Virus record (IMG/VR): IMGVR_UViG_3300030376_004602 | Location: 19,268-83,267 of that record | Origin: a virus | Lineage: Duplodnaviria > Caudoviricetes | Direction: 5' to 3' (one strand) | Length of the DNA stretch: 64,000 bases | Part shown: one piece after another, positions 44,675 through 49,011 of the stretch | Layout of the letters: the number at the start of each line of letters is the position of its first letter | Position numbering within the stretch: position 1 is the first letter of the stretch | Position numbers and translations under genes: made by a program | Notes under the pieces: generated by a model | What the model saw: the letters and a program-made list of their open reading frames with translations, nothing else | Databases searched by the model: none | What the model was told of the DNA's origin: nothing

Positions 44675-44803
44675 TTAATTAAATCGTGCTAGATATCTAT
44701 ACATCCAGTCAATTCCAGCATCTCTACCCTCATGGTCTTGCACAGCCCATATAATATCCTGTGCATCCTCAAGAGGTATAGTATACTCAATAGCCTCAAA
44801 CAT
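44675..44803 (-). CDS. Small hypothetical protein (42 aa, MFEAIEYTIP...)
   Basis: TAATG-coupled to the upstream gene. Confidence 0.55.
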   Translation of the reverse strand: MFEAIEYTIPLEDAQDIIWAVQDHEGRDAGIDWMYRYLARFN

Positions 44804-45138
44804 TAATTCTTCCATATCTTAAGTTTTTGTATTGCTTCCATAATAAGAGTTACTTGTTCTGCACTACAACGATGCGCTGAATGACCGTATATCTCGAAAG
44901 TTGTAGGATGACATATTTCGTCCAGCCTTACGTCAGTACCGTCAATACTCAATCCACCAACGTTGTTACAGTTATCAAAAAAGGAAACTGTATAAGAGTC
45001 GAAGAAACCATCATCGCTGACAGAAACAGCCCTTTCATTGTCAAACTTAAGATAAGCTGAGGTTACTACTTTCTCACATTCGTCAATATAATCATTGACT
45101 ACATGAGGTATGAATGTTAAGTCGTCAAACGTTTTCAT
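44803..45138 (-). CDS. Hypothetical protein (111 aa, MKTFDDLTF...)
   Basis: Intact ORF. Confidence 0.7.
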   Translation of the reverse strand: MKTFDDLTFIPHVVNDYIDECEKVVTSAYLKFDNERAVSVSDDGFFDSYTVSFFDNCNNVGGLSIDGTDVRLDEICHPTTFEIYGHSAHRCSAEQVTLIMEAIQKLKIWKN

Positions 45139-45168
45139 ATGCTTTAGTATTGGTTAGTAATGTTAAAA

Positions 45169-45289
45169 ATATTTACTTATCTATCATATCTCTTTGGTAG
45201 CGAACCGTTTCTGCAGTCGAAACAAGATACCTTGCACTCTAGAATACTGGGGATCCACTCGTTGGCTTCCTCCCACGATAAGTAAATAT
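45169..45289 (-). ncRNA. Structured RNA candidate A
   Basis: Perfect 13-bp closing stem (45169-45181/45277-45289) around 95 nt containing several hairpins. Confidence 0.55.
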
Positions 45290-45292
45290 AAG

Positions 45293-45403
45293 TTTGTAAT
45301 ATGTAAGCGCTGAGAGTTTTAAAGTTGTCTTACACACAGGTCACAGTATTTCCTATCTCCTTACCTTGTTCGAACCTCAGGTTACTGCTGCACTTATTAC
45401 AAA
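45293..45403 (-). ncRNA. Structured RNA candidate B
   Basis: 8-bp closing stem (45293-45300/45396-45403) extended by stems that need G-U pairs on the - strand. Confidence 0.45.
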
Positions 45404-45416
45404 TAATAAATAAAAA

Positions 45417-45522
45417 TACTTTCTTATATCTCCACAGCTATAATCACCACTAAGCGTTTGAGACCTCGCTGTTAGTTTTGGGTAGCATAGGTTTACTACT
45501 GCTTCAACGATATAAGAAAGTA
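45417..45522 (-). ncRNA. Structured RNA candidate C
   Basis: Perfect 14-bp closing stem (45417-45430/45509-45522) around 78 nt forming a three-way junction. Confidence 0.55.
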
Positions 45523-45528
45523 ATAGCC

Positions 45529-45720
45529 ACCTGGTACTAGTAGACAACTAGTCCAGGATTACAGTTCCTTGTCTTGGCACTGTTAAGCATTATTGTGCGG
45601 TCAACTATGCTGTACTTACACATAGCCTAGTGGTTAGCTTGACCCTTGTTACTACCTACAATAACCAACTGTAGTAGCCCCTGACTAGACTCGTCAGAGG
45701 TTTTTAACAACAAGCATCCT
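45529..45720 (-). ncRNA. Multi-branched structured RNA candidate D
   Basis: Stems CCTGG/CCAGG with ACTAGT/ACTAGT, ACAGT/ACTGT, GGTCAA/TTGACC, CTGAC/GTCAG and TGTTAA/TTAACA. No ORF of 60 aa or more. Confidence 0.45.
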
Positions 45721-45767
45721 CAGTTAAGGCTTAAGGCTGCTCAACTTTTGGTATATAGCTCGTTGTC

Positions 45768-45929
45768 TTAATGATGCAGATCTCGCTGGTTAACGGATGG
45801 AGATTTTTGCCGTAACTGCATCATATCTTCATAGCACTGTTGACAAGTATGAACTTCGTCACATGTGCACGTTAGCTCAGGAGATATCCTAGACATCTCC
45901 CAAGCAAATTGTGCATCTTCAAACATCAT
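45768..45929 (-). CDS. Small putative Zn-binding protein (CxC...CxxC)
   Basis: LTCTCDEVHTCQQCY. Start moved to the ATG 2 nt after the upstream stop. Confidence 0.55.
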   Translation of the reverse strand: MMFEDAQFAWEMSRISPELTCTCDEVHTCQQCYEDMMQLRQKSPSVNQRDLHH

Positions 45930-45931
45930 AC

Positions 45932-46186
45932 TTAATACATATTTGCCCAAGGACTATGGTACGTAACCTGGTCCTTGGTAGGATCAAACATTTCAAAGGT
46001 AGCTGTATTGTCATCCATCATACGATAAGATAACTTCAACAGTCTTACAGATGGAGTATGATAAGTATTAATACTTTCATACCCAGTACCACCAAATGTA
46101 GATACAATTACCCGCTTGTCTCCGTCAGGAACACAAGTCAGGTAATTGAATAAGGCACTACCTAAACGATATCTAAAGTTCTTCAT
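45932..46186 (-). CDS. Hypothetical protein (84 aa)
   Basis: Intact ORF. Confidence 0.65.
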   Translation of the reverse strand: MKNFRYRLGSALFNYLTCVPDGDKRVIVSTFGGTGYESINTYHTPSVRLLKLSYRMMDDNTATFEMFDPTKDQVTYHSPWANMY

Positions 46187-46299
46187 AGTACTAAGTAATT
46201 ATAAATGAATACTGCGGTATAACCAATCCCCATAACTAAGAGGAATACCATTAATGAATCAGAGCCATGTTGCTCTGCGTCTGTCTTTCTACGTTTCAT
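46183..46299 (-). CDS. Single-pass membrane microprotein (38 aa, MKRRKTDAEQHGSDSLMVFLLVMGIGYTAVFIYNYLVL)
   Basis: ATGA-coupled to the next gene, with a basic N-terminus and a hydrophobic helix. Confidence 0.55.
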   Translation of the reverse strand: MKRRKTDAEQHGSDSLMVFLLVMGIGYTAVFIYNYLVL

Positions 46300-46334
46300 A
46301 ACTTATTGTATTAAGAGGTAAAAGAATTAAGTTA

Positions 46335-46452
46335 ATGCCTAGACGTACGCCAGAACCGTGGTATCTCACGGACGGTTCCACACCAGCTATCGCCAATGCT
46401 TCAAAACCTCCCACGTATCCTGATGATCCGTTAACACGTACGTCTTCGGCAT
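46335..46452 (-). ncRNA. Structured RNA candidate E
   Basis: Closing stem ATGCC+AGACGTACG / CGTACGTCT+GGCAT (14 bp with an internal loop), inner CCGTG/CACGG stem and a G-U rich hairpin on the - strand. Confidence 0.55.
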
Positions 46453-46520
46453 GCTTTCCACTACAGCCATCACACTGTTTCTCTCATGGGTGGCCCACTA
46501 TCGGCTAATAACCGCATGTG

Positions 46521-46672
46521 TACTCTCACAAGGTTGCAACCCTTGAACTTATTAGCATTCCTGAAGCACTGTTCTAAGGATACACTAGATGAACTATGTA
46601 TCTTACTCCACTCAGAATTAACTCCTTGCTTAGGAAGCAGTCACCTTCCATTCCTGCAATCGGATGAGAGTA
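46521..46672 (-). ncRNA. Structured RNA candidate F, with an acceptor-stem/T-arm-like 3' end
   Basis: 8-bp stem TACTCTCA/TGAGAGTA directly adjacent to a 5-bp/7-nt hairpin, with nested inner stems. Confidence 0.5.
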
Positions 46673-46679
46673 TATAAAT

Positions 46680-46703
46680 GGGAGAGCTTACAGGTGCTCT
46701 CCC
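46680..46703 (-). terminator. 8-bp hairpin, terminator or processing site
   Basis: GGGAGAGC/GCTCTCCC followed by ATTTATAT on the - strand. Confidence 0.5.
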
Positions 46704-46719
46704 TTAACCTAAACGTTTA

Positions 46720-46999
46720 TACTCTGTTCAGGAGTACAAGACTTAAGCATTCTCGTTGAGAAGCCAATCTTGAATGGTCACACAACCATTAGATGAAATC
46801 ACAAATGTCTTCACGGTTAGAAGGATTTAGTGATGATCTGTCTGTTGATGGTCATAGACAGAAAGAACCATATATAAAGATAGCTCACGTATTAGATGAG
46901 CTTAGAACACAGGATAATATGCAGGTTAGGGATTGGTCCCATAACCTACATAGTCAGAGTATATATTACATAAGATGACAGTGAACCCTCTTGCGAGGG
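46720..46999 (-). other. Non-coding run of hairpins
   Basis: TACTC/GAGTA, TTCTC/GAGAA, AATGGT/ACCATT, CTGTCT/AGACAG, AGCTCA/TGAGCT, AGGTTA/TAACCT and CCCTC-GCAA-GAGGG (GNRA loop on the - strand). Confidence 0.45.
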
Positions 47000-48951: not shown

Positions 48952-48959
48952 CAAAGCTA
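48952..48959 (-). promoter_or_regulatory. Bacteroidota -7 element TAGCTTTG (leftward)
   Basis: Exact match in the divergent intergenic region. No -33 at the expected spacing. Confidence 0.5.
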
Positions 48960-48979: not shown

Positions 48980-49011
48980 TTGTTATGTACAAGAAGAAAT
49001 GTATATCTTTG
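48980..49011 (+). promoter_or_regulatory. Bacteroidota sigmaA-type promoter for the packaging/capsid operon
   Basis: TTG (48980-48982), 21-nt spacer, TATCTTTG (49004-49011), 22 nt before the ATG. Confidence 0.7.

What the first reader, a model, noticed from the sequence alone, without database searches (positions are those of the whole stretch)
45140..45530. Tandem array of three ~110-nt RNA-like units, each closed by a long AU-rich stem
Seen: units A (13-bp perfect stem), B (8 bp plus extension) and C (14-bp perfect stem) sit back to back with 3- and 13-nt gaps. Each encloses a GC-richer branched core, and G-U pairs favour the - strand. A and C both start their core with ATC-GT and contain GAAGC. 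The units are not sequence repeats, so repeat or CRISPR finders would miss them. Inference: a polycistronic precursor cut at the long stems (RNase III-like) into small structured RNAs, possibly decoys for defence proteins, antitoxin mimics or unrecognised ribozymes.
Basis: partly seen in the sequence, partly recalled or inferred. Interest (0 to 1): 0.75.

Follow-up and report, generated by a model that had tools for sequence, protein, structure and literature searches.

The report
Three tiled long-stem units, phage RNA island
Three neighbouring stretches of about 110 bases in a marine crAss-like phage are each closed by a perfect A/T-rich stem; the pattern is real and not chance, and they are most likely small RNA cassettes cut from a longer transcript, but nothing like them was found elsewhere, so this is unproven.

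Summary
A (45169-45289, 13/13 bp), B (45293-45403, 11/12) and C (45417-45522, 14/14) lie back to back with 3- and 13-nt gaps. No such chain of three appeared in 300 composition-preserving shuffles of the 83-kb genome.

- The cores fold no better than shuffles (z +0.4 to +0.7).
- The shared ATC-GT/GAAGC motifs are within chance.
- There is no Rfam, tRNA or ribozyme hit.
- No homolog turned up in about 300 related phage loci, and ten marine contigs are identical, so covariation cannot be tested.

Context favours RNA:
- The block is non-coding and lies inside a minus-strand operon.
- The adjoining domain D folds better on the minus strand.
- It lies in an island that holds a conserved, uncatalogued tRNA-like RNA (unit F, at least 119 viral contigs).
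- In relatives, long-stem units cluster 4-6 fold around F.
- Two of those unit families show compensatory or G-U evidence for their closing stems.

Best reading (0.42): lineage-specific stem-closed small-RNA cassettes, excised at the terminal duplex. Rivals: mRNA processing or stability sites, DNA-level elements, or non-functional quasi-palindromes. The scan had noted comparable "handle plus cargo" RNA arrays in other phages, but their Ro60-like partner gene is absent here.

The parts
45169..45289 (-). Unit A: 13-bp perfect A/T-rich closing stem (45169-45181 / 45277-45289) around a 95-nt core. Strand is inferred from context.
45293..45403 (-). Unit B: 11/12-bp closing stem (45293-45304 / 45392-45403) around an 87-nt core. 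The arms contain TTGTAAT/ATTACAA, the core of the family G handle.
45417..45522 (-). Unit C: 14-bp perfect closing stem (45417-45430 / 45509-45522) around a 78-nt core.
45523..45767 (-). Domain D: adjoining 245-nt non-coding multi-hairpin stretch. It is about 10 kcal/mol more stable on the minus strand (z -2.5 against -1.5), with G-U pairs in its helices.
45768..45929 (-). Upstream gene: conserved 53-aa CxC..CxxC (zinc-finger-like) ORF. It bounds the non-coding block and is a marker of the RNA islands in other phages.
44803..45138 (-). Downstream gene: 111-aa ORF of unknown function, starting 30 nt after unit A.
46516..46675 (-). Unit F (context, not part of the array): member of a widespread, uncatalogued tRNA-like phage RNA family. 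It marks the island.

Best explanation
A, B and C are three lineage-specific small-RNA cassettes in the phage's RNA island. They would be transcribed on the minus strand with the flanking small genes, as one polycistronic RNA running from the zinc-finger ORF through D, C, B and A to the 111-aa ORF. In that RNA each unit's flanks pair into a 12-14-bp A/U duplex that sets it off from its neighbours. A double-strand-specific host nuclease (RNase III type) or flanking single-strand cuts would release about 80-120-nt RNAs that carry fast-evolving, weakly structured 'cargo' on a terminal stem.

Shown: the tiled stems, the lack of coding potential, and the RNA-island context.
Inferred: transcription, strand, cleavage, and any function of the cargo in trans.
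For: 1. The tiling is not chance.
2. No ORF of 60 aa or more under table 11, TAG=Q or table 4 beyond overlapping shadows. No coding homology by tblastn of all six frames against 2.4 Mb of related loci.
3. Flanking genes are all on the minus strand with no convincing terminator between them. The adjoining domain D has z -2.5 on the minus strand against -1.5 on the plus strand.
4. Cores are 44-47% GC in a 38% GC genome.
5. The same island holds unit F, a real RNA: 68.8 bits to a model built from 60 sequences, including unit F itself, and compensatory changes at 4 of 8 closing pairs.
6. In 136 F-bearing loci, inverted-repeat units with arms of at least 11 bp and loops of 50-130 nt reach 0.5-0.78 per kb within 500 nt of F, against about 0.12 per kb elsewhere. 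Tight pairs also occur there, for example L104 with a 3-nt gap directly after the zinc-finger gene.
7. Analogous units are demonstrably base-paired. Family H has an 11-bp A/U-rich closing stem with compensatory changes at 5 pairs among 5 sequences, and in the crAss-like relative L008 it sits in the slot syntenic to D-C-B-A. The family G handle tolerates G-U over A-C by 38:15 on the strand of F.
8. Weakly structured cargo is normal in these families: mean z -0.6 for G and -1.0 for F.
9. Hatchet ribozymes and tRNAs lie in the same islands. A true tRNA-Asn is enclosed by a 10-bp stem identical to the inner part of A's stem in L307/L309.
Against: - No homolog of A, B or C by blastn, nhmmer or the covariance model R1. 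Ten independent marine contigs are identical, so there is no covariation.
- The cores fold no better than shuffles, and slightly worse than G or F cargo.
- The stems of A and C are purely Watson-Crick with no G-U pair, which suits DNA as well as RNA.
- No promoter, terminator or transcript data.
- No phage RNase III gene.
- 12-14 bp is short for classical RNase III substrates (general knowledge).
- The handle matches in IMG/VR number about what chance predicts (my own estimate).
Confidence: 0.42

Rival explanations
1. Cis-acting mRNA elements only. The three duplexes are processing, stability or insulation sites in the polycistronic early or middle mRNA. Like RNase III sites in phage T7 early RNA, or Correia elements in Neisseria transcripts, they would uncouple the upstream genes from the 111-aa gene block. 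The excised cores would have no function of their own.
For: - Position between cistrons of one strand.
- All the statistical signal lies in the stems and none in the cores.
- No conservation of the cores anywhere.
- Correia elements show that inverted repeats of about 100-150 bp in transcripts bind RNase III and are either cleaved or protected by it (PMC2649163).
Against: - Three adjacent sites plus a 245-nt structured domain are more than insulation needs.
- The close relatives L008 and L001 manage without them.
- The cores are richer in GC than typical spacer DNA.
- Relatives' units in equivalent slots have conserved interiors (family H).
Confidence: 0.22
2. DNA-level elements: MITE-like insertions, invertible segments (invertons), or cruciform or hairpin sites for replication or recombination in a hyperplastic genome region.
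For: - The long arms are perfect Watson-Crick and A/T-rich, as expected of DNA inverted repeats.
- The region is a variable slot that relatives fill differently.
- TAnnTTTG motifs are enriched in the window (85 against 62 +/- 8). That motif is, from general knowledge, the Bacteroidota -7 promoter box, and invertons are common in that phylum. Two copies lie on the plus strand inside the array.
- Two scaffolds have assembly gaps at 45407 and 45231.
Against: - No second copy of any unit or arm in the genome beyond chance 11-13-mers.
- No target-site duplication seen by reading the flanks.
- The three arm pairs differ, unlike sites for one recombinase.
- No resolvase/invertase or tyrosine recombinase gene in the record.
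- All contigs from separate samples that cover the array (window plus eight) have the same orientation.
- The array lies about 3.5 kb from the cumulative GC-skew minimum and strand switch at about 48.9 kb.
- Analogous families show an RNA-type G-U bias.
Confidence: 0.16
3. No function: quasi-palindromes made perfect by template-switch repair in a non-essential spacer, or decayed remnants of former RNA genes such as G-type units.
For: - No conservation outside one clonal population.
- Unstructured cores.
- B keeps only the 7-bp core of the G handle and lacks its CAG/CTG and AGUG flanks, as a decaying copy would.
Against: - Three perfect or near-perfect 12-14-bp stems tiled without overlap are very unlikely without selection or a common mechanism (0 of 300 shuffles).
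- Decay should erode the stems first.
- Phage genomes rarely keep 630 nt of inert DNA (general knowledge).
Confidence: 0.2

Closest known systems
Phage tRNA / small stable RNA gene arrays (T4 tRNA cluster with its species 1 and 2 RNAs; general knowledge)
   Same: Tandem units of about 75-140 nt, only a few nt apart, each closed by pairing of its own ends, and processed from a polycistronic precursor. In L307/L309 a real tRNA-Asn sits inside a 10-bp A/U leader-trailer stem.
   Different: No cloverleaf, T-loop or anticodon arm. ARAGORN and Rfam tRNA find nothing. Closing stems are 12-14 bp instead of 7.
Y RNAs / YrlA with Ro60 (Chen et al. 2014, PMC4201824), and the 'handle plus cargo' phage RNA arrays noted earlier in this scan
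   Same: Small RNAs whose 5' and 3' ends form a terminal stem that carries a variable module, and that occur in clusters in phage genomes.
   Different: No TROVE or DUF2828 gene in this phage or in five complete genomes that carry unit F. No conserved handle sequence is shared by A, B and C. No Rfam YrlA hit.
RNase III processing stalks (rRNA operon spacers; T7 early RNA sites; general knowledge)
   Same: Complementary flanks pair over a distance to mark an internal RNA for excision.
   Different: The stems here are 12-14 bp, against roughly two helical turns in classical substrates. No cleavage data.
Correia repeat-enclosed elements and other bacterial MITEs (PMC2649163, PMC10969869)
   Same: Units of about 100-150 bp bounded by inverted repeats, lying in transcribed intergenic DNA. 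CREE hairpins are RNase III targets.
   Different: MITEs are multi-copy with shared sequence and target-site duplications. A, B and C are single-copy, unlike each other, and show no duplications.
Uncatalogued phage families F, G and H found here in related loci
   Same: Same island and same slots next to the zinc-finger gene. A/U-rich closing stems of 8-17 bp, interiors of 45-200 nt that are hypervariable or weakly structured, and tight tiling.
   Different: A-C lack the conserved handles. Model R1 gives unit C 9.7 bits (E = 1.4) and does not list A or B at E up to 10. B shares only TTGTAAT/ATTACAA with G.

Membership tests
tRNA / tmRNA genes | Cloverleaf with T-loop and anticodon arm, detectable by ARAGORN or Rfam RF00005 | tested here: not met
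   ARAGORN finds 0 genes in the window and genome, and only implausible intron-bearing calls at relaxed settings. No Rfam hit.
Known self-cleaving ribozymes and other Rfam families | A match to a covariance model at or near its gathering score | tested here: not met
   No hit at gathering score in the 64-kb window. In 44900-46300 at E up to 10 there are only five noise hits of 18 bits or less, one of them partly within the array.
Structured ncRNA in general | Folding energy clearly below dinucleotide shuffles, beyond the closing stem | tested here: not met
   Cores: z +0.67, +0.68 and +0.39 on the minus strand; +0.43, +1.47 and +0.04 on the plus strand. With stems included: -2.0, -1.4 and -3.8 on the minus strand.
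Structured ncRNA in general | Compensatory base changes among homologs | not testable with these tools
   No diverged homolog found. The contigs that cover the array are identical to the window. The look-up of encoding contigs closed.
Family F (tRNA-like phage RNA, model R1) | UACUCUCA/UGAGAGUA stem, UCCAA(UU)GCAGG junction, CAAGGRUUGCAACCUUG hairpin | tested here: not met
   Unit F scores 68.8 bits. Unit C scores 9.7 bits (E = 1.4), with an equal score on the other strand. A and B are not listed at E up to 10.
Family G (CAGUUGUAAU handle) | Invariant 10-bp handle plus a nearly invariant 3' AGUG | tested here: not met
   B has TTGTAAT/ATTACAA only, with flanks TAT and ACT instead of CAG and CTG+AGTG. 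A and C are unrelated.
Y RNA / Ro60-type particle | A Ro60 (TROVE) or Ro60-like DUF2828 gene in the genome, usually adjacent | tested here: not met
   PF05731 and PF11443 are absent from the 83-kb record (74% complete). TROVE is absent from five complete F-bearing genomes; DUF2828 gives only one sub-threshold match (12.6 bits) there.
MITE / Correia-like element | Multiple related copies, and target-site duplication | tested here: not met
   Only chance 11-13-mers elsewhere in the genome. No similarity among the units. No duplication seen in the flanks.
Inverton (invertible promoter) | An invertase gene, and both orientations present in populations | tested here: inconclusive
   No PF00239 or PF00589 match. 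The window and eight contigs that cover the array share one orientation. However, consensus assemblies hide minority orientations, and a host enzyme is possible.
Direct-repeat RNA arrays (CRISPR, ToxI-type antitoxins) | Tandem direct sequence repeats | tested here: not met
   No significant similarity among the units in either orientation.
RNase III processing stalk | A long-range duplex that flanks the excised RNA, and staggered cleavage within it | not testable with these tools
   Duplexes of 12-14 bp are present. Cleavage cannot be assessed without RNA end data.

The most novel reading that the evidence does not exclude
A-C, together with families F, G and H, would represent an undescribed class of phage small RNAs. 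In this class a terminal A/U-rich duplex ('handle') presents a rapidly diversifying, mostly unstructured cargo of 50-130 nt. The units are excised from early polycistronic transcripts in dedicated RNA islands and act in trans as guides, sponges or decoys in phage-host or phage-phage conflict. A-C would be handles private to this lineage.
Probability: 0.22. Interest if true: 0.75.

Novelty: new variant of a known kind. Interest (0 to 1): 0.5.

Why it matters
If A-C are excised RNAs, abundant marine crAss-like phages devote about 1.3 kb of a tightly packed genome to small RNAs that no database recognises.

The surrounding families make this testable. Family F alone occurs in at least 119 viral contigs, with hypervariable interiors. 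That pattern suggests selection on the cargo of the kind seen in conflict systems.

If the units are only processing sites or DNA palindromes, the finding is a minor curiosity of one phage lineage.

Tried and rejected
- **Alternative genetic codes** (TAG=Q, table 4) open no gene across the block.
- **Six-frame tblastn** of the block against about 300 loci found nothing.
- **Similarity searches**: blastn against INPHARED phages gave no match. blastn and nhmmer of A, B, C, D and E against 2.4 Mb of related loci gave nothing.
- **Flanking genes**: syntenic relatives found through the exonuclease gene (L007-L013) and the 111-aa gene (L001-L006) lack the array. The 84-aa gene has no relatives in IMG/VR.
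- **Antisense or guide idea**: the cores have no matches in the phage genome beyond chance.
- **Shared promoter motif** (CACTRTCAT/CTATCAT): not informative.
- **Handle scans of IMG/VR** for the arms of A and C: 3 and 6 loci, about what I estimate chance would give. The cargo is unrelated, apart from the tRNA-Asn case.
- **The look-up of encoding contigs closed**, so contigs of the 41%-identical relatives P0002 and P0004 were not examined.
- **tRNA-part cargo** (T-loop-like GGTTCGAAC in B, GGTTCGCTA in A): rejected on reading, because the stems do not pair.

Full report
**Setting.** The window is 64 kb of an 83-kb linear viral record from a marine crAss-like phage.
- The same sequence occurs in many Tara Oceans and JGI marine assemblies.
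- The finding lies in a minus-strand block of small genes. A 53-aa CxC..CxxC ORF (45929-45768) lies upstream; I read it from the sequence, and it has 96 relatives in IMG/VR. A 111-aa ORF (45138-44803) lies downstream.
- The non-coding stretch is therefore 45139-45767, about 630 nt.

**Observation.**
- A and C are the only perfect inverted repeats of 13 bp or more with a 20-200-nt loop in the whole genome. Markov shuffles give about 0.65 per genome.
- I shuffled the genome within 400-nt blocks to keep local composition. A chain of three tiled units never occurred in 300 trials, and a chain of two occurred 3 times.
- Arms are 15-21% GC and cores 44-47% GC, against 38% for the window.

**What is not there.**
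- Rfam gives nothing at gathering score for the window and only noise at E up to 10. ARAGORN gives nothing.
- The cores alone fold no better than dinucleotide shuffles on either strand (z +0.04 to +1.47). All of the modest signal in whole units (z -2.0, -1.4 and -3.8) comes from the closing stems. The 391-nt region as a whole is unremarkable.
- The units are not related to each other, nor to units E and F of the second non-coding block (local alignments against shuffles, all p > 0.08). The motifs ATC-GT, GAAGC and CGTGGGAGG are therefore not evidence of kinship.
- No ORF explains the region under three genetic codes, and no reading frame has a homolog in related loci.

**Homologs.**
- The contigs from separate samples that cover the region are letter-for-letter identical, apart from two scaffold gaps at 45407 and 45231. 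The population gives no covariation.
- The nearest relatives are L007-L009, with 82-83% amino-acid identity in the neighbouring exonuclease. They share synteny up to about 46700 but lack the array. Relatives of the 111-aa gene lack it too.
- blastn and nhmmer against about 300 loci (2.4 Mb) find nothing for A, B, C, D or E.

**The island.**
- The same searches showed that window 46516-46675 (minus strand, unit F) belongs to a large phage RNA family. It has an 8-bp closing stem UACUCUCA/UGAGAGUA followed by a nearly invariant AC, a 5' junction UCCAA(UU)GCAGG, a middle of 48-205 nt that is hypervariable in sequence and length, and a 3' hairpin CAAGGRUUGCAACCUUG placed against the closing stem.
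Only three prokaryote assemblies out of 185,579 species have the pattern, all of them metagenome-assembled genomes.
- Four of the eight closing pairs show compensatory changes. A covariance model (R1) scores unit F at 68.8 bits. Rfam does not recognise the family.
- Complete genomes of 113-123 kb carry one or two copies and no TROVE gene; DUF2828 gives only one sub-threshold match of 12.6 bits.
- Model R1 gives unit C 9.7 bits (E = 1.4, with the same score on the other strand) and does not list A or B at E up to 10. A-C are therefore not members.

**Analogous long-stem units in relatives.**
- In F-bearing loci, inverted-repeat units of the A-C type (arms of at least 11 bp, loops of 50-130 nt) reach 0.5-0.78 per kb within 500 nt of F, against about 0.12 per kb further away.
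- Many belong to a second family, G: an invariant handle CAGUUGUAAU...AUUACAACUG, a nearly invariant 3' AGUG, and 43-136 nt of hypervariable cargo. G usually lies 150-700 nt downstream of F on the same strand. Variant handles show G-U over A-C by 38:15 on that strand, which points to an RNA helix.
- A third family, H, has five distinct sequences, including one in the crAss-like relative L008 at the slot syntenic to D-C-B-A. Its 11-bp A/U-rich closing stem has compensatory changes at five pairs, and one more compensatory change lies in an internal hairpin.
- In L104, whose zinc-finger gene is the closest to ours, H and another conserved unit follow that gene with a 3-nt gap between them. That is the same layout as here.
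- Cargo in G and F is only weakly structured (mean z -0.6 and -1.0). Unstructured cores therefore do not exclude membership of this general class.
- Hatchet ribozymes (79-82 bits) and tRNAs lie in the same islands.
- The inner 10 bp of A's stem also encloses a genuine tRNA-Asn at the head of a tRNA array in L307/L309. I estimate that the number of such handle matches is close to chance expectation, so this is an illustration, not proof.
- B's arms share TTGTAAT/ATTACAA with the G handle, and B is the only such pair in the window. B lacks the CAG/CTG and AGUG parts.

**Strand.** Within A-C the minus strand is only 4.5 kcal/mol better. Domain D is 10 kcal/mol better on the minus strand, with z -2.5 against -1.5 and G-U pairs in three helices. 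All flanking genes are on the minus strand, so the block is probably transcribed on that strand in any case.

**Rival DNA-level readings.**
- No second copies and no target duplications.
- No recombinase gene and no orientation variants among contigs.
- The array lies 3.5 kb from the GC-skew turning point.
- TAnnTTTG motifs are enriched in the window (85 against 62 +/- 8); from general knowledge this is the Bacteroidota -7 promoter box, which suggests a Bacteroidota host where invertons are common. Two copies lie on the plus strand within the array, but about 0.5 are expected there by chance.
- These readings are not excluded.

**Verdict.** The pattern is real and non-random. It most likely marks three lineage-specific stem-closed RNA cassettes of a phage RNA island (0.42). 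The rivals are plain mRNA processing or stability sites (0.22), non-functional quasi-palindromes or decayed units (0.20), and DNA-level elements (0.16).

Earlier notes of this scan describe 'handle plus cargo' RNA arrays with a Ro60-like partner in other phages. I tested that link, and the partner gene is absent here.

Noticed in passing
window 46516-46675 (-): Unit F belongs to a widespread, apparently uncatalogued tRNA-like phage RNA family: a conserved 8-bp closing stem plus AC, a UCCAA(UU)GCAGG junction, a hypervariable 48-205-nt middle and a CAAGGRUUGCAACCUUG hairpin. It occurs in at least 119 IMG/VR contigs, shows compensatory changes, has no Rfam hit, and has no Ro60-like gene in complete carrier genomes.
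   Followed up: partly
L150:3722-3805, L136:4452-4580, L280:9960-10079 and about 30 other loci: Family G: an invariant CAGUUGUAAU...AUUACAACUG handle with a 3' AGUG and 43-136 nt of hypervariable cargo. It usually lies 150-700 nt downstream of F on the same strand. The G-U over A-C bias (38:15) indicates RNA.
   Followed up: partly
L104:4192-4280, L008:7667-7753, L120:4490-4580, L124:5035-5125, L127:4415-4501: Family H: a small RNA of about 90 nt with a conserved interior and an 11-bp A/U-rich closing stem that covaries at 5 pairs. It sits after the zinc-finger gene or in the slot syntenic to the window's array.
   Followed up: partly
window 45768-45929 (-): A 53-aa CxC..CxxC ORF not listed with its ATG start by the ORF tool. 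Its first 104 nt are 80-89% identical at the DNA level in many otherwise different phage contigs (65-245 kb), while the C-terminus diverges. This suggests a mobile or recombining small gene.
   Followed up: partly
L269:8591-8727, L149:3164-3330, L289:4453-4619: Hatchet ribozymes (Rfam RF02678, 79-82 bits) lie 1-1.5 kb upstream of the F/G units on the same strand in three phage contigs.
   Followed up: no
L307:1730-1843, L309:2643-2756: The first tRNA (Asn, GTT) of a phage tRNA array is enclosed by a 10-bp A/U leader-trailer stem, UUUACUUAUC/GAUAAGUAAA. This is identical to the inner 10 bp of unit A's stem.
   Followed up: partly
window 46335-46450 (-) and 46680-46990: Unit E (9-bp stem AGACGUACG/CGUACGUCU) and further hairpins of the second non-coding block. 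Parts at 46679-46751 and 46836-46874 are conserved with the relatives L008 and L009, including a terminator-like hairpin at 46680-46703.
   Followed up: no
whole window; 48952-48959 (-) and 49004-49011 (+): The TAnnTTTG motif, known from general knowledge as the Bacteroidota -7 promoter box, is enriched (85 against 62 +/- 8). A divergent pair lies at the strand switch near the GC-skew minimum, which hints at a Bacteroidota host and the main divergent promoters.
   Followed up: no
L090 and L095 (contigs of the same phage), at window 45407 and 45231: Two independent scaffolds have runs of N exactly inside the array. This may mean that the palindromes disturb sequencing or assembly.
   Followed up: no
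L211:3121-3230, L165:5893-6050: Rfam tRNA hits of 110 and 158 nt in F-bearing contigs: tRNA genes with long inserts, or tRNA-like elements.
   Followed up: no
L093:7192-9177: In one contig of the same phage the family A DNA polymerase gene is called as two pieces (176 + 471 aa) instead of 661 aa. This is either a strain variant or an assembly error.
   Followed up: no
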